Of a DNA stretch of 64,000 bases, positions 45,136-64,000 are shown piece after piece. Location: NCBI GenBank assembly GCA_965116585.1, contig OZ220714.1:2211461-2275460 (forward strand), in the 5' to 3' direction. Both the position numbers and the translations under genes were made by a program. The DNA comes from Gammaproteobacteria bacterium (GTDB taxonomy: Bacteria; Pseudomonadota; Gammaproteobacteria; Eutrophobiales; Eutrophobiaceae). Each line of letters begins with the position of its first letter. Position 1 is the first letter of the stretch. The notes under the pieces were generated by a model. It was not told the DNA's origin. It saw only the letters and a program-made list of their open reading frames with translations, and did not search any database.

Positions 45136-45136
45136 T

Positions 45137-45298
45137 GTGGAACGAGGAATCATAGACCCTATTGATATGCCTTTTGATGAGGCAGTAAAACAAGTTGTAA
45201 AGCCCGATAGCGCTAAAAAGAAGAAAAAATATGATAAGCTGAAGAAGCGGCCAGTCCGCCAGTCCGCCAGTCCGGTTAGGAGTCATCCATCAAGGTGA
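45137..45298 (+). CDS. Probable detached 5' segment of the methyltransferase gene (53 codons, Lys-rich)
   Basis: Its GTG start lies 6 nt after a strong GGAGG. The frame ends 14 nt before the ATG of the methyltransferase ORF. One extra CCAGTCCG unit would fuse it to the methyltransferase frame. Confidence 0.45.
   Translation: MERGIIDPIDMPFDEAVKQVVKPDSAKKKKKYDKLKKRPVRQSASPVRSHPSR
45251..45274 (+). repeat. Octanucleotide tandem repeat (CCAGTCCG)x3
   Basis: Three exact head-to-tail copies, read directly. Confidence 0.95.
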
Positions 45299-45311
45299 CT
45301 GCGTTAATGTA

Positions 45312-45995
45312 ATGCGGTCGATGCCGGCTGAAAGCGTCCGGCTTGTAGTAACCTCCCCGCCTTACAATATCAAAAACAGCACAGGAAACGGCCTAAAGAA
45401 CGGCAGAGGAGGCAAATGGCCTAATGCCGCACTACAGGCCGGATATGATGTTCACGAAGACTGTATGCCGCATGATGAATACGTTGCCTGGCAGCGTGAT
45501 TGTCTTTCTGCAATGCTGCGCCTGCTCCGGCCCGATGGCGCCATCTTCTACAACCATAAATGGCGAGTTCAAAACGGCCTACTGCAAGATCGTTCGGACA
45601 TTGTTGATGGTTTCCCCGTCAGGCAGATTATAATCTGGCAACGCGCAGGGGGAATTAACTTCAATCCTGGTTATTTCCTCCCCAACTACGAGGTGATTTA
45701 CCTTATAGCTAAACCTGATTTTAAGTTGGCACCGAAAGCTAATGCCTTGGGCTGTGTATGGAGAATTACCCAGGAAAATGATAACCCGCACCCTGCCCCA
45801 TTCCCTGTTGACTTGGCTTCTCGCTGCATTGAATCTGTCACTGGAGGCCCCGTACTGGACCCGTTCATGGGAAGCGGGACAACCGCGATTGCGGCAGAGT
45901 ATGCTGGTGTTGAATGGGTTGGCATTGAAAAGTCGGAGTACTATGTACAGATGGCAAATGACCGGATTAACCGCGTCATTGCTCGCAAACCATGA
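45312..45995 (+). CDS. Beta-class DNA methyltransferase, probably N4-cytosine (SPPY motif IV)
   Basis: Motif IV is VVTSPPYN and motif I is DPFMGSGTTAIAA. The conserved upstream segment GVIHQGDCVNV is in frame (open from 45243) but has no canonical start before ATG 45312. Confidence 0.85.
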   Translation: MRSMPAESVRLVVTSPPYNIKNSTGNGLKNGRGGKWPNAALQAGYDVHEDCMPHDEYVAWQRDCLSAMLRLLRPDGAIFYNHKWRVQNGLLQDRSDIVDGFPVRQIIIWQRAGGINFNPGYFLPNYEVIYLIAKPDFKLAPKANALGCVWRITQENDNPHPAPFPVDLASRCIESVTGGPVLDPFMGSGTTAIAAEYAGVEWVGIEKSEYYVQMANDRINRVIARKP

Positions 45996-46681
45996 CGGTT
46001 ATGACAGACGCCGACCTTTATGCAAGGTTGCGCGGCGTCCTTAAACGTGGATGGACACAGATACCTGATTACTATGGATACCGCGGGACTGGTGCTCCTG
46101 GTTTAATTCTGGAAGAATTACTTGGCCTGAATGCAAGCAACCTGGATTTGCCGGACGCGGGAAAGTGGGAGATCAAATTTCATAGCGGCTCTGCGCCGCT
46201 CACCCTGTTTCACCTGGAAGCACAACCAAAAGGCCACATGCACCACATGGTGCGTGAATTTGGTTGGCCTGATGATAGGGGGCGAACCAGTTTCCGTCAT
46301 ACAATTTATGGTCGGTCAGAAAGAGGGTTTTACGTAAGCAACGAAAGCGGAAGAATTACTGTCAGAAACGACACGGCGAGCGATATTGTTTGGCCTTACT
46401 GGACGCATGATGCACTGATGAATGCGTTTGCGTCAAAGTTCCGAAGACTCATCGCAGTGAAAGGAGTGAAGCGTCGAAACAGGGTTAAGTATGAAACTGC
46501 TCATCTATATTGGGAGCCTCAGATCACCATGTTCATTGAGGCTATAGCGAATGGAATAATAGCAATTGACTTTGATGCAAGGACGAATAACGGACGTGGC
46601 CTCCGCAATCACGGAACAAAGTTTAGGATTCAATATGATAACCTGCGCCACATCTACAATAACCGACAAAAGTTTGGTTAG
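45992..46681 (+). CDS. MvaI/BcnI-family (MutH-like) type II restriction endonuclease
   Basis: GAPGLILEELLGL...DAGKWEIKF...LTLFH and IAIDFDART...RNHGTKFRI parallel BcnI as I recall it. It shares an ATGA overlap with the methyltransferase gene. Confidence 0.8.
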   Translation: MTVMTDADLYARLRGVLKRGWTQIPDYYGYRGTGAPGLILEELLGLNASNLDLPDAGKWEIKFHSGSAPLTLFHLEAQPKGHMHHMVREFGWPDDRGRTSFRHTIYGRSERGFYVSNESGRITVRNDTASDIVWPYWTHDALMNAFASKFRRLIAVKGVKRRNRVKYETAHLYWEPQITMFIEAIANGIIAIDFDARTNNGRGLRNHGTKFRIQYDNLRHIYNNRQKFG

Positions 46682-53500: not shown

Positions 53501-53564
53501 AAATACTTCATTCGTCATTCCTGCATTCGCAGGACGAACAGGGTTTTACTGCCCCTATATAAAG

Positions 53565-53590
53565 AAAAGCCGATCCGGAGATCGGCTTTT
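53565..53590. terminator. Bidirectional rho-independent terminator AAAAGCCGATC-CGGA-GATCGGCTTTT
   Basis: Perfect 11-bp stem including A/T runs, between convergent genes. Confidence 0.7.
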
Positions 53591-53613
53591 CGGTTCAGCA
53601 GACCGAATGGAAG

Positions 53614-53907
53614 CTACTGGGTCAGTTTTTTGTACGTCAGCATCGTGTCGATCGTTTTGATAATGCAGCCGAGGTTGCTGCGTACCAAAGCGTCTTCAAG
53701 GCTTTCATCCTTATCCACTTTGCTGCTCCTGCGGTTGGTATGGCCGGTCTTATCGTAAGCACGATAAATGACCTGTGGCTTTACGTCCGACAGGGCGCAT
53801 TTGAGCATCACATCCCTTGCCTCAGCCATGAAAGGGCTGGCAACGGCGTGGCTGCCCACGATAAGGAGTAAAAAAACAATCACCAGGTATTTAAGCTTTA
53901 TTCTCAT
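53614..53907 (-). CDS. Small secreted hypothetical protein (97 aa, 2 Cys)
   Basis: It has the signal peptide MRIKLKYLVIVFLLLIVGSHAVA. It is AT-richer than its surroundings and I recognise no family. Confidence 0.45.
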   Translation of the reverse strand: MRIKLKYLVIVFLLLIVGSHAVASPFMAEARDVMLKCALSDVKPQVIYRAYDKTGHTNRRSSKVDKDESLEDALVRSNLGCIIKTIDTMLTYKKLTQ

Positions 53908-54072
53908 CGAAGTTCTCCTGTGGTTGGACCACAAGGGGAATACGCCCGGGGGCGTATTGCAGCCCTCGGGTCGGTTGCTGGGTCATGTCCGCGAAGGACA
54001 CGATCATCCCGCGGAACGGGAATGATTCTTTGAGGTATTTTCGATTTTTCATTACAAGTCTGTTCCATGTTG

Positions 54073-54099
54073 CCGGGGACAGACACGTTCTGTCCCCGG
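54073..54099 (-). terminator. Hairpin CCGGGGACAGA-CACGT-TCTGTCCCCGG downstream of the repeat-protein gene
   Basis: Perfect 11-bp stem whose arms match those of the palindrome at 27038-27065. Confidence 0.5.
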
Positions 54100-54117: not shown

Positions 54118-55821
54118 TCAAGGGGTAAAACAGGCGTATGGGCCATGGGCTATCACTTCCCATTTTCCGTTTCTGCACAGGTATCGCTTATATGCGGCAC
54201 AATAACTCTGGCCGTTACTGCATTCTGCTTTCTGACAACTCTTGGTTCCCGTTGCAGTGCGCGTCTTCGGCTGGTTATACCTGCCGCTACAGGAGTAATA
54301 GCTCTTCTGGGTAAACGTCTGGCCTTTGCATACCGTACCCGTAGACGGGCCATAAGGACCCCAACTGCAACCGCACCAGGAAGCCGTGCCTTGCGCGGTC
54401 TGGGATTCCTTCTTCCCACAAGTATTGGTGCGGGTCTGGGTGAAACTGCCGCACTTTGAGGCGCGGTCAGGGCTCCATCCCGTCGCGGTGCCGCAGCACT
54501 TTGTTCCTGTAGCACTACGACTCTCCGTACTACAGTTTTTCAGGGTGCGGGTCTGGGTGAAACTGCTCCCTGCACATACGGTACCTGGAGAGGGTTGCCA
54601 CCCGGTGGGCGTACATTCTCTGGGACAGGACTTGGTGCCGGTGGCGCTGCGGCTGTCACTGGAGCAATTGCTCAAGGTACGGGTTTGAGTCAGCTTCTGC
54701 CCACTACAGACTGTACTGGTTGAGGGACTCCAGGAGGTTATCTTGCAGCTTGGCGCACAACGTTTGGTGCCGGTGGCGCCACGGCTGTCCTGGGAGCAAT
54801 CGCTCAGTTTGCGGGTTTGAGTGAACTGTTGGCCGCTACAGACTGTGCCGGTTGCGGGACTCCAGGAACCGGCGTTGCAGGTTTGCGGGCAGTATTTTGT
54901 GCCGGTAGCCCTGCGGCTGTCGCTGGAGCAATTGCCCAGGGTGCGAGTCTGGGTAAATGACGTGCCACTGCAAGCCGTGTTGGTGGCAGGTGTCCAGGAA
55001 GTAACCGTACAGGTTGACGGACAGGACCGGGTGCCGCTGACCGTACGTCTGTCAGTGCTGCAATCACTCAGGGTACGGGATTGGGTCAGGGTATCCCTGC
55101 TGCACGCGCTGTCCCTGCCGGGCGACCAGGCTGTGACCGCGCAGGTCTTCGAACAGGATTTGCTGCCGTTCGCGCGGCGTTGCTCGGTGCTGCAATCCGC
55201 CCGGGTGCGGGTCTGAGTGAAACTGTTCCCGGCACAAATGCTACTGGCGCTTGGCGCCCATGCGCTGGTGGAACATTGTTTCTGCGGTGGCGGTGCGCAA
55301 GCCCCGTTGTCCACGCTGCGGCTGCGGGTCTGCACAGTGGGTTGGCAAAGATCGGGACAGGGCTTGACCGCATCGGTGGGGACGGAGCAGGTGCGCTGCT
55401 GGGTATAGCTGTGGACGCCACAGGCGGTGGGCGGGCTGCCTTGCCAGTTGCCCCAGGTTTCTGCGAGCTGGCACCAGTCCTTGTCGGCGCTCGCCTTGAT
55501 GTGGTCAAGAAAGTTATTGAACGTCGATGAATTTTTCAACACGACCGGGAAGCCGCCGGCACGGCCGGGGTCCACCCACAAACGGTACGGGTAGGGATGT
55601 TCCGTACTGCCGCTATAGCGTTTAACGATATTCTGCCGGTCCTGCGGCCACAGGATCATGACGTCCGGCTGGCCGGACTGCCAGTAACCGTGGTCTCCGT
55701 GTGTGTTGACGCGTTTATCAGTGTCACTGATGGTTTGTGCGCCGGCCGGTTGGGAGATGGCAAGGACGAGCGGCAACAGCTTGATGAGGGTAAATAATTT
55801 TTGTAAGTAGTTCATGTTCAA
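54118..55821 (-). CDS. Secreted cysteine-rich protein with ~9 tandem thrombospondin-type-1-like 44-aa modules
   Basis: It has the signal peptide MNMNYLQKLFTLIKLLPLVLAISQPAGA, an AAGGAG RBS and the repeat W-x-P-x5-C-x-G-x2-F-T-Q-T-R-T-x3-C-S-x-[DE]-S-R-x-A-T-G-T-K-x-C-x3-C. It lies 19 nt downstream of the PilV-like gene. Confidence 0.8.
   Translation of the reverse strand: MNMNYLQKLFTLIKLLPLVLAISQPAGAQTISDTDKRVNTHGDHGYWQSGQPDVMILWPQDRQNIVKRYSGSTEHPYPYRLWVDPGRAGGFPVVLKNSSTFNNFLDHIKASADKDWCQLAETWGNWQGSPPTACGVHSYTQQRTCSVPTDAVKPCPDLCQPTVQTRSRSVDNGACAPPPQKQCSTSAWAPSASSICAGNSFTQTRTRADCSTEQRRANGSKSCSKTCAVTAWSPGRDSACSRDTLTQSRTLSDCSTDRRTVSGTRSCPSTCTVTSWTPATNTACSGTSFTQTRTLGNCSSDSRRATGTKYCPQTCNAGSWSPATGTVCSGQQFTQTRKLSDCSQDSRGATGTKRCAPSCKITSWSPSTSTVCSGQKLTQTRTLSNCSSDSRSATGTKSCPRECTPTGWQPSPGTVCAGSSFTQTRTLKNCSTESRSATGTKCCGTATGWSPDRASKCGSFTQTRTNTCGKKESQTAQGTASWCGCSWGPYGPSTGTVCKGQTFTQKSYYSCSGRYNQPKTRTATGTKSCQKAECSNGQSYCAAYKRYLCRNGKWEVIAHGPYACFTP
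54496..55272 (-). repeat. Six well-conserved tandem 132-bp (44-codon) coding repeats; degenerate copies extend to about 54223-55455
   Basis: The periodicity shows in translation (aa 184-442), and the DNA units look roughly three-quarters identical by eye. Confidence 0.85.
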
Positions 55822-55840
55822 ACTCCTTCTTGGTTAGTCG

Positions 55841-56491
55841 TTACGGGTTAATGAGGATGTCGTTGAAGGTAGCGGTGGTACCGATGATAATGTCCGCTTC
55901 CACGGTGCCGGTGGCGCCGGGGTTACGGGCTATGACGCGCAATACGTCGGTTAAGCTGTTCTGGTTCAGGTCGATGGCGTCACCCATGCCGGCGTTGAAA
56001 CTCAAGGCGCCGCTCATCTGGTCTCCGGCGCGTTTGACGAACTCATCTTCGGCATCATCACGGCTGATAAAGGTATCCAGCAACGCCAGGTCGGTGGGGT
56101 CGGCGAAACCAACGGTGACCGTGTCAGCGCTGACCTGCGCCACCGCGCCCAGGCGCGCGGCAATGCGCCCGGCTTCGGCGTTGTCGGCTGCCTGATAGCG
56201 GATAGTGAAGCCGCCGGTTGCGGGAAACGCGAACACTGGCGCCGCAAAGCCCGGGTCGGCTTCCCAGATCGGCAGGTAGTCACGCAACGTGGCAATGTCC
56301 CCGGCATAGCTGCCGGACGCGGGGTTGTCCGGGTCGGAGACGTAGCGATGCTGCGCCAGGGCCAGTTGCACGATGGTGTTCTGGACCCGGTCCGGCACCA
56401 GCGAACGGGCGCGTTCTTCGATCCGAAAACTCAACCCCAGGGACAGCAGGCTGAACACCAGCATGAAGTAAACAGTGGGCAGGACGTTCAT
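55841..56491 (-). CDS. PilV-like minor pilin / tip-adhesin candidate (non-canonical N-terminus)
   Basis: It has an N-terminal hydrophobic segment. The motif RAGDQMSGALSFN...IDLNQNSLTDV recalls the motif at the end of the shufflon PilV constant region and phage tail-fibre proteins. It occupies the last pilin slot in the operon. Confidence 0.45.
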   Translation of the reverse strand: MNVLPTVYFMLVFSLLSLGLSFRIEERARSLVPDRVQNTIVQLALAQHRYVSDPDNPASGSYAGDIATLRDYLPIWEADPGFAAPVFAFPATGGFTIRYQAADNAEAGRIAARLGAVAQVSADTVTVGFADPTDLALLDTFISRDDAEDEFVKRAGDQMSGALSFNAGMGDAIDLNQNSLTDVLRVIARNPGATGTVEADIIIGTTATFNDILINP

Positions 56492-56940
56492 AACGGGTCA
56501 CAGGAAAAGTCGAGGCCGGCGTAGGCAAACAGGTTGTAGCTGTTGTTGGCGGCGCGGAACCCGGTGACATCGTGATCCGGGATGAACGTATAAGCGCCAC
56601 CTGCGTCAAACCCGCCCAGCGTTTGCCGGGGCAGGTAGGCCAGATAACCGGCGTTGCCGCTGACATCGACGCTGACCACGGGATGCTCTGCCGTGCGCCA
56701 GGTAAACGTCACGCCCTGGCTGTTGAAGTCGGCGGGCAGATTGCCCGCGGCCTGCAACATGGTCTGGGTGACTGTCCCCGGCAGGGCGTCGCAATGCGCG
56801 CCGATATAATCCATACCGGCGCGCTGCATTGCCTGCAAAGTCTGCATGTAGGCTTGTGTGTCCCGCTGCGGTTGCATCAAGGTCACGACCCCCATGAAGA
56901 CCGCCAGGGACAGGACCACCTGGTAGAAGACAGCTTGCAT
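56488..56940 (-). CDS. Membrane-anchored pilus-operon protein (pilin-like or PilM-like), 150 aa
   Basis: It has the N-terminal hydrophobic segment MQAVFYQVVLSLAVFMGVVTLM. It starts 3 nt after the upstream gene and shares an ATGA overlap with the downstream one. Confidence 0.45.
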   Translation of the reverse strand: MQAVFYQVVLSLAVFMGVVTLMQPQRDTQAYMQTLQAMQRAGMDYIGAHCDALPGTVTQTMLQAAGNLPADFNSQGVTFTWRTAEHPVVSVDVSGNAGYLAYLPRQTLGGFDAGGAYTFIPDHDVTGFRAANNSYNLFAYAGLDFSCDPL

Positions 56941-56943
56941 GGC

Positions 56944-57387
56944 TTACTTGATGACGACGGTGATAACGCTGGTGGCGCAGGCATTGGTGGCGGAGTCCGA
57001 GTCCACCTTGGCCCACTTGCCGGTGGTGGCCCGGTCCAGCAACCAGTTACAGCTCTTCTCATCGCCGGCATCGTAGGTGACGACGGGCGGCGTGGCGCCC
57101 GGGGACGCGGTGATATCCGTTTCAATCACGCTCTCATCCCCACCGTCTGCATACAGCTCGGAATCCAGGTAACCGTTGTCCACCAGCGCCTCAAAGTCGG
57201 CGCCTGCCAGGGCTGTATCGTTGCGGTTAACCCAGCGATACTCCGATGCGGCGTTGATAATGTTGGTGATTTCCGCTTCCATGTTGCGGTTCTCCGACTG
57301 GGTGACCAGCGGCGCCAGCGCGGTGTAAGCGCCGAAACCGACGACGCTGGTGATGATGAGTCCGAAGACAATTGCGACTTGATTCAT
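56944..57387 (-). CDS. Candidate major pilin (PilS position), 147 aa, non-canonical signal
   Basis: It has a strong GGAGG RBS, an N-terminal hydrophobic helix and a C-terminal Cys113...Cys137 pair like a pilin D-region. It immediately follows the platform gene. Confidence 0.5.
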   Translation of the reverse strand: MNQVAIVFGLIITSVVGFGAYTALAPLVTQSENRNMEAEITNIINAASEYRWVNRNDTALAGADFEALVDNGYLDSELYADGGDESVIETDITASPGATPPVVTYDAGDEKSCNWLLDRATTGKWAKVDSDSATNACATSVITVVIK

Positions 57388-57405
57388 GGTTTTTTCCTCC
57401 AGTGG

Positions 57406-58437
57406 TTACAGTTGAATTCCCATACCCATGGAAACCAGGGCAAACGGGATGGTGATGGCAATGCTGCTGGACAAAAACAGCATTGTGTAGAAACTCTGCC
57501 AGGCCTTGATGGCCCTGTTCAGCCTGATGTTCAGCATCCGGGCCGCCATGTTGAAACCCCTGGCGATCTCATCCTGGGTCTGGTTGGGCGTGCAGGCCAG
57601 GACGTGGGTGTAGGTATAAGGGGTTAAGACGTCGCCCAGCACTTGCAACAGGGAGGCCTCTTTCAGGCGCGCCCGGCTTTTGTGCAGCGCCTGACCCAGC
57701 AAACGTTGTCGGGAAAACGTTGTTTGCATCAGGCGCAGGTACTCATCAGGCGGCAGGCGGGTGGCGATCAGGGCGCCGCCGATTTTCAGGAAGCGCCGTT
57801 CGGTCAACATGGCATGGACCCGGAAACAGCCACAGGCCATCAGCGCGCTGCGTAACGGCCCGGTCAGCCGGAGCATGCACCAGTGGTAGAGGACCAACGC
57901 GGCTGCCGCCAGCGCTGCCAGTTGCGGCCACCAGGATTTGACAAAGGTGACGTAATCAAAGAACAGGACATAGCCGCTGGTGTAATTTTTCAGGTAAGGC
58001 AGCGTGTAGATGGACATGGCGGTCATGATCAGGCTCATGAAGATCCACTGCATGCTGCCGGAGAGGATTTGCAGTATTGCCGGGGCCCGTTCATCCTGGT
58101 CCAGCAGTAACTCCGTAACGGTATCCATGCAGTCGTAACGCTCCCCCAGTATCAACAGTTTGCTTTCCTGCTCGGTAAACAGTCCGGTGGCATGGTAATG
58201 GGTGGCGAAGGGCTGATTATTGCGAATGGCGCGCTTGCTGAGCCGGGCAATTTCCTGGATGGCCGGGTTGTTGCCGTGCTGCTGCACGTGGTTGAACACC
58301 CCAAGCAGGGGAAAATGGCTTCTCAGGTACTCCCGCAGGGTGGCGTAGAAGTAGGCGCGGGTATCGTTGTTGAACAGCAGGGTGCGCAGGTAGAGTGCTT
58401 TGAGCTGGTGCAGCCAGGTTTTAATTATGCCAGGCAT
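57406..58437 (-). CDS. GspF/PilC-family inner-membrane platform protein (PilR of R64 nomenclature)
   Basis: 343-aa protein with three hydrophobic segments separating two cytoplasmic helical domains. It lies downstream of the ATPase gene and overlaps it. Confidence 0.75.
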   Translation of the reverse strand: MPGIIKTWLHQLKALYLRTLLFNNDTRAYFYATLREYLRSHFPLLGVFNHVQQHGNNPAIQEIARLSKRAIRNNQPFATHYHATGLFTEQESKLLILGERYDCMDTVTELLLDQDERAPAILQILSGSMQWIFMSLIMTAMSIYTLPYLKNYTSGYVLFFDYVTFVKSWWPQLAALAAAALVLYHWCMLRLTGPLRSALMACGCFRVHAMLTERRFLKIGGALIATRLPPDEYLRLMQTTFSRQRLLGQALHKSRARLKEASLLQVLGDVLTPYTYTHVLACTPNQTQDEIARGFNMAARMLNIRLNRAIKAWQSFYTMLFLSSSIAITIPFALVSMGMGIQL

Positions 58438-60034
58438 CGTACAGGTTCCCTTTGTTGAAATTGCCTATCTTGCGTTGGGTGAGTAACGGGTCCAGTTCGC
58501 CATTGCTGATCTTCGTGCAAGCGTGCTGGTGGATATTCAGGATGCCGTTTGCGTGCATCCAGTCGCGCATTGCCTGGGGGTTGGTCGTATCCTTCAATAA
58601 ATACCTGTTGGCCTCGGTGATCGGGACGCACTCGGCCACCAGGGTAAGGCTGCCGATGCCGGTATGCCGGCAGGCGCTGCAACCGTATTTATTCTGAAAG
58701 CGGATATATTGACCGGCTTCGGCGCCGAAACCGGCACGGTAATAGTTCTGCCAGTACGGATCGGAGTGTTGTTCGAGTTTGCAATGATGGCAGAGCACGC
58801 CGATCAGGGACTGGACGATGATCAGGCTCAGGAAAGATTCGGAAAACAGGATGTCCGGGCTGATGCCGAGGTCGGCCCTGGACACCAGCCGGTTGATGGC
58901 GTCCACCCAGCCGGAGCCGTGGATGGAGGCGATCCCGGTAGTCCCTTGCAGCATCATGGAGGAGGCCATGACCGCGGTTTCCTTGTCGCGGATCTCGTTG
59001 ATGGCGATGAAGTCCACGTCGTGGCGGGTGGAGATACGCCGCAGCCGTTCCTTGTTTTCCCGGATAATGTCCTCGGTGCCTTCGATCGGTAGCTGGATTT
59101 GCACGAAGTTTTCCAGTTCCACCTCGATCTGGTCGGAGATCTCCAGGTTTTTCTCCAGCGCCGGCCGGGTCTTCATGATGGCCGTTTGCGTGGTGGACTT
59201 GCCGGAGTTGACCGCGCCGATGATTAAGGTAATGCCTTTGTTGGCGGCAACCTGTTTCAGGGTTTGCAACTGCGTCTCGTGGTAGCCCAGGGCGCTGAGG
59301 TCGGGGATATATTTCATGTCCCGCAGGCGGATAGCCAGACTGCGTTCGTCGGTCACCTTGGAATACCCGTAGGACACGCGGCACAGCCATTTCTGTCCGT
59401 TGTAATCGAAGTTGAAACGCCCGTCCTTGGCCACGTCGCCGTTGCTGAACGGCTGGTTCACGTAGATGTTCCAGACCGCGGCAATGATCTTTATGCCCTG
59501 GCTCTTGTCGAACGACTGGCTGGTAGAAAGCTGGCCGTAGATGCGTTGATACACGGTGGTCCTGTTATGCTTGATTTCCAGGTGGATGTCCGTAGCCTGG
59601 TTGTTGATGGCCTGTATCAGCAACTCGTTGACCTGGTTGGAGCTTTCCCGGGTTTGCTGTTGCAGGGAAAGTTCCTGGTTCCTGTTCATCCAGGATTCGA
59701 AGACCGAGCGCGTGGTCTGGCGAATCATGGGTTCCTGCTGCAGCGCTTCCCGGCTCAGGTTGATCAACTGGTTCAGTGCCAGCGCCTCGTGTTTGTTGAG
59801 GTCGCTACGGTCAATGCAATACAGTTGCTTGTCCTCGGCAATGAACCCGGGACAGGCGCCGTTCATTTTCCGGGTTTCCGTGAGGATATCGGCATTGGTC
59901 GTAGGCTGGATGTTTTCCAGTTCCTCATAATTGGTGATCAGCGGCGCTTCACACACCATATTCTCCGCGTGCTCCTGTTCGAACGACGGCAAGGCAGGCG
60001 CCTTATGCTGTTTTTTGAAGGTCTTGAACATCAT
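58421..60034 (-). CDS. GspE/PilB-family secretion ATPase (PilQ of R64 nomenclature)
   Basis: It has Walker A GAVNSGKST, Walker B/Asp box DFIAINEIRD, a His box TGIASIHG and the tetracysteine CHHC...CSAC. Confidence 0.9.
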   Translation of the reverse strand: MMFKTFKKQHKAPALPSFEQEHAENMVCEAPLITNYEELENIQPTTNADILTETRKMNGACPGFIAEDKQLYCIDRSDLNKHEALALNQLINLSREALQQEPMIRQTTRSVFESWMNRNQELSLQQQTRESSNQVNELLIQAINNQATDIHLEIKHNRTTVYQRIYGQLSTSQSFDKSQGIKIIAAVWNIYVNQPFSNGDVAKDGRFNFDYNGQKWLCRVSYGYSKVTDERSLAIRLRDMKYIPDLSALGYHETQLQTLKQVAANKGITLIIGAVNSGKSTTQTAIMKTRPALEKNLEISDQIEVELENFVQIQLPIEGTEDIIRENKERLRRISTRHDVDFIAINEIRDKETAVMASSMMLQGTTGIASIHGSGWVDAINRLVSRADLGISPDILFSESFLSLIIVQSLIGVLCHHCKLEQHSDPYWQNYYRAGFGAEAGQYIRFQNKYGCSACRHTGIGSLTLVAECVPITEANRYLLKDTTNPQAMRDWMHANGILNIHQHACTKISNGELDPLLTQRKIGNFNKGNLYDAWHN

Positions 60035-60066
60035 TGCCTAAAGATCATTGCCCAAAGATTATTGCC
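60032..60066 (-). repeat. 14-bp tandem repeat (about 2.5 copies) spanning the pilP-like stop and the ATPase start
   Basis: On the coding strand GGCAATA-ATCTTTGGGCAATG-ATCTTTAGGCAATG. It creates a 5-codon mini-ORF whose TGA overlaps the ATPase ATG. Confidence 0.9.
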
Positions 60067-60802
60067 ATGGCACAACGTAAACCTGTTTGCTGACTTGGTC
60101 CTGCAGATGCACTTCGTGCCGGCTGCCGGTGCGCCGGTCTTCGACGTAATCCACCTTGACGATCTTGAATTTGCGCCGATTGTGCTCGATGACACCCTCC
60201 AGGTTCAGGGAGCGGGGCCGTCCGTTGCTCACCAGTACCACGCTGGCCGTTATCCCCAGCTCCCGGTTTTCACCGTTGACGTGTCCGACTACCAGGCCAT
60301 CTATGCCTTCCCGTGGGGGCTTGGGCTTTGGTGCAGGCTGCACCGGCTTTTTGACAGGTTTCGGCGGTTTCTTTGCCGCTGGGGCCGGGCGTGGCGCCGG
60401 CGCTTTTTCCGGTTTCAGCAAGGCCGCAAGGTCGGGCCTGAGCTTTACCAGTTCGGCATGGGTGGCGCGCAATAATCCGGCGTTGATCTGTTCTCGCTGC
60501 AGGTTTATTTCTGCCAGGATATCCAGGATTTGCTTGTAATAAACCAGGTCCACCACCAGTTGTTCGCTACGACTGCAATGGGGACAGGTAGCGCTTTCAG
60601 ACGGCGTTACGGTTTGCTCCGGCGTTGCCGGGCGCGCGGCAGACAGGCCGGGACGTTGCGGCGCGTGCGGCGCTGGCACGGCCGGTTTTGCCACTTGTGC
60701 CTGCCCTACTGCCGGCTCGATACCGGCATCGGGCTTGTCCGGCTCTGCGCCGGCCCGATGCGCGGCGCCGGCTATGAACAACAGGAAGATCAGGTATTTC
60801 AT
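60059..60802 (-). CDS. PilP-like periplasmic pilus biogenesis protein with a Pro/Ala/Lys-rich linker
   Basis: It has a signal peptide (MKYLIFLLFIAGAAHRAGA), a coiled-coil segment, a PAPRPAPAAKKPPKPVKKP linker and a C-terminal beta domain. It sits between the PilO-like gene and the ATPase gene, as in R64/PAPI-1 clusters. Confidence 0.5.
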   Translation of the reverse strand: MKYLIFLLFIAGAAHRAGAEPDKPDAGIEPAVGQAQVAKPAVPAPHAPQRPGLSAARPATPEQTVTPSESATCPHCSRSEQLVVDLVYYKQILDILAEINLQREQINAGLLRATHAELVKLRPDLAALLKPEKAPAPRPAPAAKKPPKPVKKPVQPAPKPKPPREGIDGLVVGHVNGENRELGITASVVLVSNGRPRSLNLEGVIEHNRRKFKIVKVDYVEDRRTGSRHEVHLQDQVSKQVYVVPWQ

Positions 60803-60803
60803 A

Positions 60804-61976
60804 TCAGGTTCCAATGATTTCGATGACGATACTGATGCTGTCCCACCCTGCATGCCTGCCGGCGCTGACCCTGGCCTCTTTCAGGTGGCCGTGCAGCGCG
60901 GAGTGCTGTAATTGCCGGACCCATTGATCCAGGGTGGCGGGAGCGGGATGCTGATAACTGATCTCGACAACACCGTGTGCCGAGTCATGTTTCTGGTTGA
61001 CGCTGACAATCGTGAAGCGAGCGTCATTGGCGCCGGCGAATTGCCGGTATTCCTCGAAGCTGGTCGCCAGGGGAACCAGGTCCCCGGTTTCTCCCGCGGC
61101 GGGCTGGAACCGGGAGGAAGTCAGGGTCCACCTGTTTTTCTGCACGGAAAACCGGCCTTGCAGGCGTTGCGCGAGGCTGTGCAGGCGTTCCAGTGAAAAA
61201 GACTGGACATAGTTGCCGGTGGCGCTGACGTTGTATCCCGCCCCGGCCTGCTTGATACTGATAGTTGCCAGGTTGTAGGCCAGCAATACCGAGAAATTTG
61301 TGAGCAGGGAGGCCAGGGCATCCAGGTCCTCGTCAATCTGCCGGGTGCTTTCCGGCTTGGGGGGCGGTGGAGGCTGTGTGCTTTCCCGTATCTTCGGCGC
61401 TTCCACGTTGGTGATGAACACGTAAACCAGTCCCGCGATCATGCAGGGTGCAAGTGTCAGCAGGCTCAGTTCCGGCAAGCTGTAACCGCGCCGCAGCAGG
61501 TAGGGGTTGTTCTTTCCCGGCTCAAGGTTGATATGCAAGTCCTTGAGGGCGATATGGTGTTGCGTGAACGCGTTGCTGAGTTCGCCCAGTTCGGCTACCT
61601 GACACTCCAGCGGGTTGTTTTTAATCAACTCGATACAATCTTCAAACGCCAGCAGTTCCTCTTTTTCCACCAGGATATAATCCGCCTGTACCCGGATAGT
61701 TGCCAGGTACACCGTGTTGTCAAAAGGCAGGAAAATATAATGCCGGCCGGGGCGTATGTCCGTGTGAATCCACTGCACGATCTGCGCGGCGATGGAAATG
61801 GCCTTGCCTTCGTCGAAAAAAATGAAGCCCTCGGATTCCAGGTAGTATTTTTTCTTCAGCGCGCCCAAACGTTTATTCACGTACAACCAGGCGCGGCGCT
61901 CTTCCGGCAGGGTCTGGCTCTCCGCGTTCAGGCACAGGTCAATGTCGCGTGCGCCCAGGCTGATAGTCTCGATCAT
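60804..61976 (-). CDS. PilO-like (type IVb, R64/PAPI-1 PilO/PilO2) bitopic membrane protein
   Basis: 390-aa protein with a cytoplasmic N-domain, a single TM (LLTLAPCMIAGLVYVFI) and a periplasmic C-domain. It shares an ATGA overlap with the secretin gene. Confidence 0.5.
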   Translation of the reverse strand: MIETISLGARDIDLCLNAESQTLPEERRAWLYVNKRLGALKKKYYLESEGFIFFDEGKAISIAAQIVQWIHTDIRPGRHYIFLPFDNTVYLATIRVQADYILVEKEELLAFEDCIELIKNNPLECQVAELGELSNAFTQHHIALKDLHINLEPGKNNPYLLRRGYSLPELSLLTLAPCMIAGLVYVFITNVEAPKIRESTQPPPPPKPESTRQIDEDLDALASLLTNFSVLLAYNLATISIKQAGAGYNVSATGNYVQSFSLERLHSLAQRLQGRFSVQKNRWTLTSSRFQPAAGETGDLVPLATSFEEYRQFAGANDARFTIVSVNQKHDSAHGVVEISYQHPAPATLDQWVRQLQHSALHGHLKEARVSAGRHAGWDSISIVIEIIGT

Positions 61977-63541
61977 GATCTGAAGCTCCCCTGGATCAGG
62001 AACAGCGTCTGCGTCAGGCGCTTGCCCCCGGTGGCGGAATTGCCGGTCAAACGGTTAAACGGCCACACCGGCAACAACCCGGAGCGGTCGGTTTTTACTT
62101 CCACCTCCTCCCGGTGGGTGGAGGCCAGCAACACGGTTTCACCATCCTCGATGCTCACGTCAAAAATATTGTCATTGCCGGAACTGATCGGCAGTACGCC
62201 GGAGGTGCCGGCAATCTGGTAGGTGTCCATGGCGTCGATCTGGGCTTCGTTGATGACGATGTGCAGGGCAATCAGGTTATCGGTCAGCGTTGGCAGAATG
62301 TTGATAGCCTGCCCGGTTTCCAGTTCACCGATTTCCACGGTGGGTGTGGACAGGCTGGTGCCACCGGCATCGGTCTGCTGGATGCTGGTGCGTTCGACGT
62401 AGCGGTGTACGCGGTAGTTGCGGATGGTCACCAGGCGGTTGTTATAGACCAGGATTTCCTTGCTGTCGTCGATGGAAATATTGCCTACCTGGGCCAGCGC
62501 CCGGAGTATGATTTCCGACGAGTTCCAGGGGCTGCCGGGGTCGTCGATTTTAAGGCTGAACACGCCGCCGCCGGTATTGATTTGGGCGCCGCTCAGTTGT
62601 TGCGTCAGGTTGCTGATGTTGGCGGCAATGCTGGCATTGCGCACTACGGACAGGTCCACGTGTTGTTGTGCCAGATCGGTCACGTCCAGACGCACTACGG
62701 TGATCTTGATATTGGCCTGCCGGGTGACGGTTTGCAGCCATTTCCGGTATGCCTCATCGAACAGGACAATGCGTTGCGGCCTGGCTGTAATGGAGAGCAG
62801 GTTGCCGGTGGAACTGATGCTATAACATTCCTTGTCATTCCAGGTATACGTGCCTATCTCCTTCAAATTCTCCTCATCTTCTTTGTTTTCCTGTTCACAG
62901 TAGCGAATGCCCAGGACGGTATTCACCAGTTGATGGATGTCGTTCTCCGCGGACAACTGGCTGCTGATGTTGTTTTCATAGCCGCTTGCCTTGTTCGGGT
63001 CCCGGCCCAGGTTGTTGCTGCTGACGTTGATGATGTTGTTACCGCCACCGTACAACGGCACCTCATATTCCCTGGTGATCATGGGTGTGATCAGCAAAAT
63101 ACCCTGGCGGAATTCGTAGCCCACGTTGGCTTGCAGGCTGATGGCTTGCAGGTGGTCTTCCACGGTAACGGCAAGCGGGGTGGAACTGACCGGCGGGTTG
63201 TAGTTATCCGGCAACGCGTAGGCGACCGGATAGCCCGGGGTCAGCCGCCGCAGGGTCTCGCGCAGGCCCTGGTTGCTGTAGGTGGCCTGGTAAGGCCGGT
63301 ACAGCCAGGCTTTTTCCCGGGGTACGTCAACCCGTTTGGCGCGGGTGTTGATGGCGCGTACGGTTTGCTGTTCTTCCAGGATCTGGCGGTAGCGCGCCTG
63401 CGCGCTGCTGATTTCCTGTTCCCGTTGCTTAATGTTTTCGCTGCACGCAGACAGGACCAACAAGGCCAGCAGAAGCGTACGCCTGCCGGGGCCAAACGGG
63501 TAACGTAGGCGGGCCGGTTTACATTGTGTTGTCTTCATCAT
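61973..63541 (-). CDS. Secretin-family outer-membrane lipoprotein (PilN of R64 nomenclature)
   Basis: It has the lipobox LLVLSAC and a C-terminal secretin-like region (...LLASTHREEVEVKTDRSGLLPV...LFLIQGS...). The start is ATG 63541/63538 or 63565. Confidence 0.7.
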   Translation of the reverse strand: MMKTTQCKPARLRYPFGPGRRTLLLALLVLSACSENIKQREQEISSAQARYRQILEEQQTVRAINTRAKRVDVPREKAWLYRPYQATYSNQGLRETLRRLTPGYPVAYALPDNYNPPVSSTPLAVTVEDHLQAISLQANVGYEFRQGILLITPMITREYEVPLYGGGNNIINVSSNNLGRDPNKASGYENNISSQLSAENDIHQLVNTVLGIRYCEQENKEDEENLKEIGTYTWNDKECYSISSTGNLLSITARPQRIVLFDEAYRKWLQTVTRQANIKITVVRLDVTDLAQQHVDLSVVRNASIAANISNLTQQLSGAQINTGGGVFSLKIDDPGSPWNSSEIILRALAQVGNISIDDSKEILVYNNRLVTIRNYRVHRYVERTSIQQTDAGGTSLSTPTVEIGELETGQAINILPTLTDNLIALHIVINEAQIDAMDTYQIAGTSGVLPISSGNDNIFDVSIEDGETVLLASTHREEVEVKTDRSGLLPVWPFNRLTGNSATGGKRLTQTLFLIQGSFRS

Positions 63542-64000
63542 GGAACTCGACCTGTTTGTTGTCATGGATGAGTGTCTTGATCCCGAAGCGTGCTTGCAGC
63601 AGCTTGATCAGGTCCTTGTGGCCGTCGGGCAATGGCACTTCGAGGCTTTGCGTCAGGCGGTAATCGGCATACCTGCCGGGCTCACCAAGGCGCCAGGAAA
63701 CGTCGTCAAAACCACAGTTCAGGAAGTACTCCTGTACAGTCGCAGATAACATGGCCCGGTTGGTAAATTGAATGGAACGGCAGCGCCCCGCCTCGGCTAC
63801 GGCCTGCATATCGTCCTCGGCGGGAACGGGTTCGACGACGCGCCAGGTTGTCTGGTTGTGAGTGTCCCCGTTCCGGTCGGTTTCGGCGCTGTCGGTTTCG
63901 GCGCCTGACCGGGTGGGTAGTTCCTGCTCCTGCGTGTGCGCGTCCGTGCCGGCGGCTGCGCTGTCCGGCGCCGTCGCGACAGCAAGATCAGCGAGGACTA
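63519..64000 (-). CDS. PilL-like protein, C-terminal part with a TcpQ-like domain (5' end outside the window)
   Basis: The frame of track ORF 63519..63809 stays open to the window edge (...TWRVVEPVPAEDDMQAVAEAGRC...GFDDVSWRL...). An acidic/Thr-rich linker precedes the domain. It lies directly upstream of the secretin gene. Confidence 0.5.
   Translation of the reverse strand, partial: VLADLAVATAPDSAAAGTDAHTQEQELPTRSGAETDSAETDRNGDTHNQTTWRVVEPVPAEDDMQAVAEAGRCRSIQFTNRAMLSATVQEYFLNCGFDDVSWRLGEPGRYADYRLTQSLEVPLPDGHKDLIKLLQARFGIKTLIHDNKQVEFHDEDNTM

What the first reader, a model, noticed from the sequence alone, without database searches (positions are those of the whole stretch)
54118..55821. Secreted cysteine-rich protein of ~9 thrombospondin-type-1-like repeats as the terminal gene of a type IVb pilus operon
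The 567-aa ORF has a cleavable signal peptide (…AISQPAGA/QT) and its own AAGGAG RBS. It starts 19 nt after the PilV-like gene and is followed by an 11-bp-stem hairpin. It is therefore the last cistron of the pilus operon. After a ~120-aa N-terminal domain that I cannot place, the protein consists of 8-9 tandem ~44-aa four-cysteine modules. Six of these are well conserved (aa 184-442). The consensus is W-x-P-x5-C-x-G-x2-F-T-Q-T-R-T-x3-C-S-x-[DE]-S-R-x-A-T-G-T-K-x-C-x3-C. The first copy begins WGNWQG...C...YTQQRTC. A Cys-rich C-terminal knot (CSNGQSYCAAYKRYLCRNGKWEVIAHGPYACFTP) ends the protein, giving roughly 45 Cys in total. The W...C...G...(T)Q(T)R(T)C spacing resembles eukaryotic thrombospondin type 1 repeats (WSxW...CSxTCGxGxQxRxRxC). 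Such repeats are adhesion modules and are rare in bacteria. Type IVb pilus operons are known to encode pilus-dependent secreted or tip-bound factors at equivalent positions, such as TcpF in V. cholerae, CofJ in ETEC, and PilV adhesins in R64. I hypothesise that this is a pilus-exported or tip-displayed adhesin, possibly targeting a eukaryotic or particle surface. The 132-bp DNA repeats could also allow copy-number variation by recombination.
Basis: partly seen in the sequence, partly recalled or inferred. Interest (0 to 1): 0.8.

Follow-up and report, generated by a model that had tools for sequence, protein, structure and literature searches.

The report
Mini-thrombospondin-repeat protein in a pilus/T4SS operon
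A real, uncharacterised secreted protein built from about nine cysteine-locked modules with a predicted thrombospondin type 1 fold is always encoded next to a pilus-like secretion machine in a group of uncultured Gammaproteobacteria, so it is probably that machine's adhesin or exported partner, but this is untested.

Summary
The ORF is real. It lies on the minus strand, 55815..54118, and encodes 565 aa from the ATG that fits the AAGGAG site. It has a Sec signal peptide and 42 Cys. After an unplaced N-terminal beta domain comes one 6-Cys WxxW module, six 44-aa 4-Cys repeats at exact 132-nt spacing, two degenerate repeats and a Cys knot.

No Pfam, NCBIfam or PDB sequence match exists, and hhalign against TSP_1 gives 1% probability. 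However, AlphaFold models match tandem TSR structures by Foldseek (properdin, prob 1.0; BAI1 TSR3, TM 0.60). Related bacterial repeats also hit Pfam TSP1_2. The thrombospondin-like reading therefore holds at fold level.

In 18/18 loci of the 41-96% identity clade the gene directly follows the same secretin, GspE-like ATPase, platform protein and three small proteins. Where visible, these follow VirB4/6/8/9/10. More distant homologues (28-34%) lack pilus genes and mostly sit beside S8 proteases.

It is not the last cistron. A conserved 97-aa secreted protein (53907..53614) follows, and the T-tract terminator lies after that.

Pilus-dependent export or tip display remains inference. Verdict: observation partly confirmed, interpretation partly supported, a new variant of a known kind.

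The parts
54118..55815 (-). Target CDS, 565 aa plus stop. The ATG at 55815 is preferred over the TTG at 55821.
   Evidence: ORF list and translation. RBS spacing read from sequence. 118 homologues. Confident AlphaFold model.
55823..55828 (-). AAGGAG ribosome-binding site, 7 nt before the ATG
   Evidence: Read from sequence.
55738..55815 (-). Sec-type signal peptide (res 1-26, ...SQPAGA|QT)
   Evidence: Sequence features. Predicted helix 2-20, then low pLDDT at 22-25. A conserved A-x-A|QT junction in orthologues.
55468..55737 (-). Conserved N-terminal beta-rich domain (res 27-116), fold unplaced
   Evidence: pLDDT above 90. 83% identity among close orthologues. No convincing PDB or viral structural match and no PDB sequence match.
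55273..55455 (-). First module (res 121-181): WGNW motif, 6 Cys, TSR-like fold
   Evidence: Foldseek on model m8a13db193260 hits BAI1 TSR3 (TMt 0.60, rmsd 3.9, prob 0.99), properdin, F-spondin, TSP-1, ADAMTS13 and Sema5A TSRs.
54478..55260 (-). Six tandem 44-aa, 4-Cys 'mini-TSR' repeats (res 186-446). Consensus: W-x-P-x5-C-x-G-x2-F-T-Q-T-R-T-x3-C-S-x3-R-x-A-T-G-T-K-x-C-x3-C.
   Evidence: 132-nt periodic DNA repeats. HMM hits of 53-64 bits each. Each unit is predicted as a Trp strand plus a beta hairpin. Properdin is the top Foldseek hit.
54220..54477 (-). Two degenerate repeat modules (res 447-532)
   Evidence: HMM hits of 16.6 and 25.9 bits.
54121..54219 (-). C-terminal Cys-rich knot (res 533-565), the best-conserved part
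   Evidence: 88% identity among close orthologues. Also present in distant homologues P0024 and P0070.
54073..54099 (-). 11-bp-stem hairpin after the stop codon. It has no T tract and is window-specific.
   Evidence: Sequence. Absent from most orthologous loci.
53985..54028 (-). Conserved double-hairpin intergenic element upstream of the next gene
   Evidence: Nearly the same sequence and two hairpins are found in L001, L004, L007, L008, L012, L015 and L016. No Rfam family matches.
53614..53907 (-). Downstream conserved gene: a 97-aa protein with a signal peptide, 2 Cys and its own RBS. This is the true last cistron of the conserved block.
   Evidence: tblastn 35-90% identity in every locus with downstream sequence. 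Start and RBS. No family hit.
53564..53591 (-). Intrinsic terminator (12-bp stem plus T run) ending the operon
   Evidence: Terminator scan. Sequence.
55841..56491 (-).
   Evidence: No profile or PDB hit. Its family is narrow (92 clusters, all >=49% identity) and is always followed by the target.
56488..56940 (-). 150-aa protein with an N-terminal hydrophobic helix
56944..57387 (-). 147-aa candidate major pilin: a conserved hydrophobic N-terminus and a conserved C113/C137 pair near the C-terminus. No G|xxxE prepilin motif.
   Evidence: No profile hit.
57406..58437 (-). Platform protein (weak T2SSF match)
   Evidence: PF00482, E=1e-3.
58421..60034 (-). GspE/PilB-class ATPase
   Evidence: PF00437, 9e-41. 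TIGR02533, 3e-42.
60059..61976 (-). Two unplaced genes (264 aa and 390 aa) in the positions of PilP and PilO
   Evidence: Conserved synteny. Gene order as in an annotated IncI-type pil cluster. No profile hits.
61973..63565 (-). Secretin related to PilN (type IVb) and MshL
   Evidence: TIGR02520, 6.9e-14. TIGR02519, 2.4e-13. Both are below the curated cut-offs.
63562..64000 (-). 3' part of a 324-aa gene that runs off the window. In the near-identical locus L020, VirB10, B9, B8, B6, a 282-aa gene and VirB4 lie upstream of it.

Best explanation
The gene encodes a Sec-exported, disulfide-locked (42 Cys) and strongly basic (K+R 62, D+E 30) rod-shaped protein. A conserved N-terminal beta domain and a conserved C-terminal Cys knot are separated by a variable-length stalk. 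The stalk is one TSR-like module followed by about eight shortened 4-Cys 'mini-TSR' modules.

I propose that it is the dedicated extracellular binding partner (adhesin or bridging factor) of the machine encoded by the same operon. That machine is a type-IVb-pilus/T2SS-class secretin-ATPase-platform-pilin module fused to VirB4/6/8/9/10.

Proposed route:
1. Sec export.
2. Oxidative folding in the periplasm.
3. Passage through the operon's secretin with the growing filament, as for TcpF and CofJ.
4. Either retention at the filament tip or release.
5. The Trp/Arg-bearing basic TSR faces bind anionic glycans on a target cell, which could be a eukaryotic host surface or the LPS of a recipient bacterium.

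Shown: the gene, signal peptide, repeats, predicted TSR-like fold, conserved operon position, and conserved ends with a variable stalk.
Inferred: export by this machine, the location of the protein, and the ligand.
For: - The gene is real and conserved (118 homologues).
- Models are confident (pLDDT 82.8 and 92.3).
- Tandem-TSR proteins are the best structural matches.
- Pfam TSP1_2 hits the same motif in linked relatives.
- The gene order secretin-390-264-ATPase-platform-147-150-216-target-small ORF is invariant in 18/18 loci, spanning 41-96% target identity.
- Genes are tightly packed and co-oriented, with a 25-nt gap and an own RBS before the target.
- The N- and C-terminal domains are conserved (83% and 88%), while the repeat array is less so (73%) and changes by whole units between orthologues. 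This is the pattern of a stalked adhesin.
- Net charge is about +32 and 42 Cys imply an oxidising extracytoplasmic location.
- In other bacteria the same repeat sits in proteins with Laminin_G, LRR_5 (BspA), FG-GAP, Glug, cadherin-like and classical TSP_1 domains, that is, extracellular binding proteins.
- There is precedent. T4b pili export one operon-encoded Sec-dependent exoprotein that binds the tip minor pilin (PMC10120004, PMC6048534). Conjugative T4b pili carry adhesins that recognise LPS (PMC5297154, PMC9045228).
Against: - No experiment or expression data are available.
- Homologues at 28-34% identity keep the N-domain, repeats and C-knot but lack any pilus genes nearby (L002, L003, L018). 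The same genomes appear to hold both kinds. The protein family therefore does not need this machine in general.
- The mature N-terminus is folded after about 5 residues in the model. There is no long disordered export signal like that of TcpF.
- No large TcpB/CofB-like minor pilin, no canonical prepilin motif and no prepilin peptidase are in the cluster. Even the existence of an external pilus is therefore inferred.
- The TSR assignment rests on predicted structures and a transitive profile hit. Direct profile tests fail.
Confidence: 0.45

Rival explanations
1. Operon passenger. The protein is a general secreted or cell-surface, matrix- or glycan-binding protein exported by Sec plus a housekeeping T2SS, or retained on the envelope. 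Its function does not depend on the neighbouring pilus/T4SS machine. The linkage only reflects co-regulation or shared ancestry of the island.
For: Distant family members with the same domain plan occur without pilus genes. They are mostly next to Peptidase_S8 genes and are sometimes tandemly duplicated. Paralogues of both kinds seem to share genomes, because their contig sizes are identical. No TcpF-like disordered export signal is seen.
Against: Adjacency to the 216-aa gene is 18/18 across species that have diverged to about 41% target identity and about 34% identity in the 216-aa protein. The intergenic gap is 25 nt and no terminator separates them. Such stability is unusual for an unrelated passenger.
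Confidence: 0.25
2. Recipient-recognition factor of a conjugation-type apparatus. The VirB module plus thin-pilus module work as in IncI plasmids or PAPI-1. The TSR protein plays the PilV role as a soluble tip partner rather than a pilin, binding LPS or another envelope polyanion of other bacteria. It does not bind a eukaryote.
For: VirB4/6/8/9/10 genes lie directly upstream in the same orientation. One related locus has SSB and ArdC-N genes just downstream. The gene order parallels an annotated MPF_I plasmid pil cluster that ends in PilV. The protein is strongly basic. Conjugative T4b pili are known to recognise LPS (PMC5297154, PMC9045228).
Against: In L020 the cluster is bounded on the VirB4 side by housekeeping genes (SDR, deaminase, CinA), and in the window by amidohydrolase and sulfatase genes. 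No relaxase, coupling protein or VirB11 is seen in the sequence available. The target has a Sec signal rather than a prepilin leader. There is no shufflon.
Confidence: 0.15
3. Structural part of the machine rather than an adhesin. The protein would be a periplasm- or envelope-spanning stalk, ruler or secretin-associated component whose repeat number sets a distance.
For: It is invariably present in the cluster (18/18). It is rod-like and modular, with conserved ends and unit-wise length variation.
Against: No known T4P, T2SS or T4SS has such a component. The length varies almost twofold among orthologues (377-643 aa), which is hard to reconcile with a fixed envelope dimension. Unlinked homologues exist.
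Confidence: 0.08
4. Protease-related function. The family is a substrate, inhibitor or partner of subtilisin-like proteases, and the pilus-linked copy is a derived use.
For: Three family genes in two loci are each followed by a co-oriented Peptidase_S8 gene: P0036 in L018, and P0070 plus its upstream 540-aa paralogue in L003.
Against: There is no S8 gene next to any of the 18 pilus-linked copies. No similarity to known protease-inhibitor folds appears in the Foldseek output.
Confidence: 0.05

Closest known systems
Thrombospondin type 1 repeats (TSR; Pfam clan with TSP_1 PF00090 and TSP1_2 PF23260), as in properdin, thrombospondin-1, BAI1, F-spondin and apicomplexan TRAP/CSP
   Same: - The predicted fold is a Trp-bearing irregular strand packed on a two-stranded Arg-containing hairpin and closed by disulfides.
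- The modules form rod-like tandem arrays.
- Tandem-TSR structures are the best Foldseek matches.
- The first module has WxxW and 6 Cys.
- Relatives of the repeat are hit by PF23260.
- Classical TSP_1 domains are interleaved with this repeat in some bacterial proteins.
   Different: - The repeated unit is 44 aa rather than about 55-60 aa.
- It has one Trp instead of WxxWxxW, 4 Cys instead of 6, and a QTR(T) motif instead of RxRxR.
- There is no Pfam TSP_1 hit, no PDB sequence hit, and hhalign probability is 1%.
- It is bacterial and exported by Sec.
- Where both module types occur in one protein, they are distinct.
TcpF (V. cholerae TCP) and CofJ (ETEC CFA/III): exoproteins of type IVb pili
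   Same: The protein is encoded inside the pilus operon, has a Sec signal peptide and is not a pilin. It is the only non-machine protein of the cluster apart from a small ORF. The mechanism proposed here is borrowed from them (PMC10120004, PMC6048534, PMC9565799).
   Different: There is no sequence or fold similarity. No long disordered N-terminal export signal is seen in the model. No TcpB/CofB-like large minor pilin is in the cluster. The machine here is fused to VirB T4SS genes. Dependence on the pilus is untested.
PilV tip adhesins of conjugative type IVb thin pili (R64/IncI1, TP114/IncI2, PAPI-1 PilV2)
   Same: The gene sits near the distal end of a PilN-O-P-Q-R-S-like gene series that is adjacent to T4SS genes. 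The expected role is choosing the cell surface to bind (PMC5297154, PMC9045228).
   Different: PilV is a minor pilin with a prepilin leader and, in IncI plasmids, shufflon-variable C-termini. The target is a Sec-secreted TSR array with no pilin N-terminus and no shufflon. ATPase identity to the best plasmid system is only about 23%.
Bacteroidota ~88-aa 'WSPxxSTVNLGxxFTQSRxC...ATGTK' repeat proteins (for example MBD77313.1 from a Crocinitomicaceae MAG), annotated by Pfam as TSP1_2
   Same: They share the W-x-P...F-T-Q-[ST]-R...C and ATGTK motifs and are linked by the repeat profile.
   Different: The unit is twice as long and mostly has one Cys per unit. There is no N-terminal domain of the target type. 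Their genomic context was not examined.

Membership tests
Thrombospondin type 1 repeat (TSR/TSP1) superfamily | Significant match to a TSP1-clan sequence profile (PF00090, PF19028, PF19030, PF23260) | tested here: not met
   The target has no Pfam hit at E<=1. hhalign of the repeat profile against a TSP_1 alignment gives probability 1.2%. The only link is transitive: PF23260 scores 61 bits on relatives that the repeat profile connects to the target.
Thrombospondin type 1 repeat (TSR/TSP1) superfamily | Three-stranded elongated fold with a Trp strand stacked on an Arg-bearing hairpin | tested here: met
   Tested on predicted structures only. Foldseek top hits are properdin (prob 1.00, 0.99) for the whole protein. 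For res 27-185 the hits are BAI1 TSR3 (TMt 0.60-0.62, prob 0.98-0.99), properdin, F-spondin, TSP-1, ADAMTS13 and Sema5A. Per-repeat secondary structure is one short strand plus a hairpin.
Thrombospondin type 1 repeat (TSR/TSP1) superfamily | WxxW(xxW) motif and six Cys (three disulfides) per ~55-60-aa unit | tested here: not met
   This is met only by the first module (WGNW, 6 Cys, res 121-181). The six regular repeats have one Trp, 4 Cys and 44 aa.
Type IVb-pilus exoprotein (TcpF/CofJ class) | Encoded in the pilus operon and carries a Sec signal peptide | tested here: met
   Operon position is conserved in 18/18 loci.
Type IVb-pilus exoprotein (TcpF/CofJ class) | Disordered N-terminal export signal on the mature protein that binds the tip minor pilin (PMC10120004) | tested here: inconclusive
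   Only about 5 residues precede the first predicted strand. No TcpB/CofB-like minor pilin is encoded. Binding was not testable.
Type IVb-pilus exoprotein (TcpF/CofJ class) | Export across the outer membrane requires the pilus machinery | not testable with these tools
   This needs secretome or fractionation data from ATPase and secretin mutants.
PilV-type pilus tip adhesin (minor pilin) | Prepilin leader with a hydrophobic alpha1-N pilin N-terminus | tested here: not met
   The target has a classical Sec signal with an A-x-A cleavage site and a polar mature N-terminus.
Type IVb pilus gene cluster (context claim) | Secretin, GspE/PilB-class ATPase and GspF/PilC-class platform | tested here: met
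   ATPase PF00437, 9e-41. Secretin TIGR02520, 7e-14 (below cut-off). Platform PF00482, 1e-3 (below cut-off). Gene order is like an annotated PilN-O-P-Q-R-S cluster.
Type IVb pilus gene cluster (context claim) | Recognisable prepilin (G|xxxE class III signal) and prepilin peptidase | tested here: not met
   The 147-, 150- and 216-aa proteins have hydrophobic N-termini but no G|xxxE motif and no pilin profile hit. No A24 peptidase is in the cluster. The 147-aa protein does have a conserved C-terminal Cys pair like a pilin D-region.

The most novel reading that the evidence does not exclude
A lineage of uncultured Gammaproteobacteria carries a chromosomal hybrid nanomachine in which a VirB4/6/8/9/10 core is fused in one operon to a type-IVb-pilus-like secretin/ATPase/platform/pilin set. 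Its single dedicated exoprotein is a bacterial 'mini-TSR' rod. The rod is displayed on or released from the filament to bind sulfated or anionic glycans of a eukaryotic host. This would be a bacterial counterpart of apicomplexan TRAP/CSP-type TSR adhesion, delivered by a pilus. The 44-aa 4-Cys unit would be a previously undescribed minimal TSR.
Probability: 0.2. Interest if true: 0.8.

Novelty: new variant of a known kind. Interest (0 to 1): 0.55.

Why it matters
If the model is right, three things follow.

1. It would extend the small class of type IV pilus exoproteins (TcpF, CofJ) beyond enteric pathogens, to a structurally unrelated cargo.

2. It would define a minimal 44-aa, two-disulfide version of the thrombospondin type 1 fold in bacteria. 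The family is rare, with only 226 cluster representatives among 1.84 billion proteins, and it is absent from Pfam and NCBIfam.

3. It would point to an undescribed operon that joins VirB-type T4SS genes to a pilus/T2SS-class module.

The gene also gives a concrete handle for asking what these uncultured bacteria attach to, through the conserved N-domain, C-terminal knot and basic stalk.

If the rival 'passenger' reading is right, it is simply a new family of secreted Cys-rich repeat proteins.

Tried and rejected
- Pfam, NCBIfam and PHROGs scans of the target found nothing.
- PDB sequence searches with the whole protein, the repeat profile and the N-domain profile gave zero hits at E<=10.
- hhalign of the repeat against TSP_1 gave 1.2% probability, so direct homology to PF00090 cannot be claimed.
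- Foldseek of the N-terminal domain against PDB and BFVD gave only low-probability avidin- or PsbP-like matches beyond the TSR hits. The domain remains unplaced.
- PDB sequence searches with the 147- and 216-aa neighbours gave nothing meaningful.
- An Rfam scan of the intergenic region found only a sub-threshold int-alpA match lying over the terminator.
- Literature searches for bacterial TSRs linked to pili or symbionts, and for the accession numbers of the source assemblies, found nothing relevant. The habitat of these MAGs is therefore not established here. Sample and isolate names hint at marine invertebrate metagenomes, but I could not verify this.
- The idea that the post-stop hairpin is the operon terminator was rejected. 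It has no T tract, it is not conserved, and a conserved gene plus a true terminator lie downstream.
- The idea of ongoing recombinational repeat-number switching was rejected. The repeats are 62-82% identical and the longest exact match is 23 nt.
- An attempt to Pfam-scan about 55 repeat-family proteins in one alignment failed technically. Eight were scanned instead.
Full report
**1. What is in the sequence**

The ORF lies on the minus strand, listed as 54118..55821 with a TTG start. Reading the upstream sequence, AAGGAG sits at 55828-55823. The TTG is 1 nt after it and the in-frame ATG at 55815 is 7 nt after it, so I take ATG 55815 as the start (565 aa). The stop of the upstream 216-aa gene is at 55841, which leaves 25 nt to the ATG.

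The N-terminus (MNYLQKLFTLIKLLPLVLAISQPAGA|QT) has the n-, h- and c-regions of a Sec signal peptide. The junction is conserved in orthologues. The model gives a helix for residues 2-20 and then a low-confidence linker.

The protein has 42 Cys, all in the mature part. It is 28% Thr+Ser and strongly basic, with K+R 62 against D+E 30.

**2. The repeats are real**

- Six DNA units lie at exactly 132-nt spacing (54493-55221) at 62-82% identity. TRF finds period 132.
- At protein level a profile built from 56 non-redundant units of the family (A4) hits the target six times at 53-64 bits (res 186-442). It hits twice more weakly (447-478, 490-532) and marginally on the WGNWQG module.
- The DNA copies are old. 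The longest exact shared stretch is 23 nt, and identical residues use identical codons only about half the time.

**3. Is it thrombospondin-like?**

Direct sequence tests say no:
- No Pfam or NCBIfam family at E<=1.
- No PDB chain at E<=10 with either the protein or the repeat profile.
- In proteins such as P0100 and P0113, classical TSP_1 domains and this repeat alternate as distinct modules.

Fold-level tests say yes:
- An AlphaFold2 model made with 62 homologues has mean pLDDT 82.8. Each unit is a short Trp-bearing strand, a turn and a beta hairpin.
- Foldseek against the PDB ranks properdin, a chain of TSRs, first. Hits are 1w0r_A (E=1e-5, prob 1.00, 389 columns), 6rus_A (0.99), 6ruv_X (1.00) and 6rv6_A (0.99).
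- A second model of residues 27-185 (pLDDT 92.3) retrieves almost only TSR domains. These include properdin (prob 0.95-0.97), BAI1 TSR3 (TMt 0.60-0.62, rmsd 3.9-5.1, prob 0.98-0.99), and F-spondin, TSP-1, ADAMTS13, Sema5A and THSD7A TSRs.
- There is also a transitive sequence link. The repeat profile finds P0125 (E=4e-28). Pfam TSP1_2 (PF23260) scores 61 bits on P0125, above its cut-off of 27. Its best stretch (505-537) overlaps a W-x-P...Y-E-Q-T-R-S-C...R-x-R unit (510-539) that the repeat profile also hits.

I conclude that the first module (WGNW, 6 Cys) is TSR-like. The 44-aa units are a shortened form with one Trp and two disulfides. The assignment rests on predicted structure, not on a direct profile match.

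The family is rare. Only 226 cluster representatives among 1.84 billion proteins reach E<=1e-3.

**4. The other domains**

Residues 27-116 form a confidently predicted beta-rich domain with one helix. It is the hallmark of the family, with invariant G40, G43, W56, G88 and C115. It has no convincing structural or sequence match.

Among the nine closest orthologues, identity to the window protein by region is as follows:

| Region | Identity |
|---|---|
| N-domain | 83% |
| C-terminal knot | 88% |
| Repeat array | 73% |

Orthologue lengths differ by whole units. Examples are 611, 565, 521 and 480 aa with 46, 42, 38 and 35 Cys. Conserved ends with a variable stalk is the pattern expected of a stalked binding protein.

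**5. Context**

Upstream, co-oriented and tightly packed, lie these genes:
- a PilN/MshL-related secretin;
- two unplaced genes;
- a GspE/PilB-class ATPase;
- a weak T2SSF platform protein;
- three small proteins with hydrophobic N-termini.

The 147-aa protein has a conserved C-terminal Cys pair like a pilin D-region. None of the three has a G|xxxE prepilin motif or a pilin profile hit, and there is no prepilin peptidase. The order resembles an annotated IncI-type pil cluster (TcpQ-domain protein, PilN, PilO2, PilP, ATPase, T2SSF, pilin ... PilV), but ATPase identity is only about 23%.

The window ends inside a 324-aa gene. In L020, where the secretin is 99% identical, VirB10/TrbI, VirB9/CagX, VirB8, VirB6/TrbL, a 282-aa gene and VirB4 lie upstream of it. 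Beyond VirB4 come CinA, a deaminase and an SDR. CagX and TrbI occupy the same place in L001, L015, L016, L017 and L023.

The pilus-like module is therefore the distal half of one roughly 18-kb operon that begins with VirB4. No relaxase, coupling protein or VirB11 is seen in the available sequence. One related locus has SSB and ArdC-N genes downstream.

**6. Linkage**

In 12 loci from the first searches the order secretin-390-264-ATPase-platform-147-150-216-target-small ORF is intact wherever sequence exists (L001 and L004-L014). Three loci of more divergent subclades (41-47% identity; L015-L017) show the same order. I then started from the 216-aa protein, whose family is narrow (92 clusters, all >=49% identity). 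Three further loci all carry the target immediately downstream, frameshifted in low-coverage contigs. The total is 18/18.

By contrast, homologues at 28-34% identity that keep the N-domain, repeats and knot have no pilus genes within 10 kb (P0024, P0036, P0070). P0036, P0070 and P0070's upstream paralogue are each followed by a Peptidase_S8 gene. P0024 is instead followed by a DUF3604 gene.

**7. Not the last gene**

A 97-aa ORF (53907..53614) follows in every locus with downstream sequence, at 35-90% identity. It has an AGGAGA site, a signal peptide and two Cys. The only canonical terminator is at 53591-53564. The 11-bp hairpin after the target lacks a T tract and is not conserved. What is conserved is a double hairpin at 54028-53985, just upstream of the small ORF.

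**8. Mechanism**

The best-supported reading is an extracytoplasmic, disulfide-locked, basic rod that serves as the binding partner of the operon's filament/secretin machine. The proposed steps are:
1. Sec export.
2. Oxidative folding.
3. Outer-membrane passage with the filament, as for TcpF and CofJ (PMC10120004, PMC6048534).
4. Binding of anionic glycans on another cell.

The same repeat occurs elsewhere with Laminin_G, LRR_5, FG-GAP, Glug and cadherin-like modules, which fits a binding role.

Several things weaken it:
- There are no functional data.
- Unlinked paralogues exist.
- There is no TcpF-like disordered export signal.
- There is no large minor pilin.
- The existence of a pilus is itself inferred.

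Whether the target cell is a eukaryote or a recipient bacterium cannot be decided. The second option follows the PilV-LPS precedent (PMC5297154, PMC9045228).

**9. Verdict**

The gene, signal peptide, RBS, repeats and hairpin are real. The start codon, the Cys count, the 'terminal gene' claim and the 'PilV-like' label are corrected.
The TSR-like fold and the conserved pilus linkage hold within one clade. Export route, ligand and recombinational variation are not shown.
- It is an uncharacterised family, best described as a new variant of a known kind of module in a new context.

Noticed in passing
window 55841-64000 (minus strand) and L020 1852-13644: The pilus-like genes are the distal half of one co-oriented ~18-kb cluster. 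It begins with VirB4, a 282-aa gene, VirB6/TrbL, VirB8, VirB9/CagX, VirB10/TrbI and a 324-aa gene. In L020 it is flanked by housekeeping genes (SDR, deaminase, CinA). No relaxase, T4CP or VirB11 is seen in the sequence at hand. I could not match this T4SS/type-IV-filament hybrid operon to a described system.
   Followed up: partly
window 53614-53907 (minus strand): A conserved 97-aa secreted protein (signal peptide, 2 Cys, own RBS) lies downstream of the target in all related loci. It is often better conserved than the target (up to 90% identity). It has no family hit and its function is unknown.
   Followed up: partly
window 53985-54028 (minus strand); also L001, L004, L007, L008, L012, L015, L016: A conserved intergenic double hairpin (GAATCATNCCCGC...GCGGGATGATC followed by GTGTCC...GGACAT) lies just upstream of the small ORF. 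No Rfam family matches. It could be a regulatory or processing element.
   Followed up: partly
L003 4568-13997; L018 10001-14224: Distant family members (28-34% identity, same N-domain) are each followed by a Peptidase_S8 gene. In L003 the pair is tandemly duplicated and interleaved with HEPN/nucleotidyltransferase toxin-antitoxin pairs.
   Followed up: no
window 56944-57387 (minus strand): The 147-aa protein has an almost invariant hydrophobic N-terminus (MNQVAIVFGLII...) starting at residue 4. It also has a conserved Cys113/Cys137 pair like a pilin D-region. It lacks a glycine-containing leader and Glu5, and no prepilin peptidase is encoded nearby.
   Followed up: partly
window 44227-46681: This is a low-GC patch (0.47 against about 0.57). 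It holds an IS1595-family transposase, an N6/N4 DNA methylase and an MvaI/BcnI-type restriction endonuclease, so it is probably a recently acquired R-M module.
   Followed up: no
P0106, P0116, P0125 (proteins from other bacteria): Long proteins from Bacteroidota-type MAGs are made of about 88-aa repeats carrying the same W-x-P...FTQSR...C and ATGTK motifs. Pfam labels them TSP1_2. They bridge this family to the TSR clan.
   Followed up: partly
L022 8088-12992: One related cluster is followed by SSB, a T2SSE-family fragment and an ArdC-N antirestriction gene. These are typical of conjugative elements and hint at a mobile origin for the machine.
   Followed up: no
window 24001-26000: A second low-GC stretch (0.468) was not examined.
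   Followed up: no
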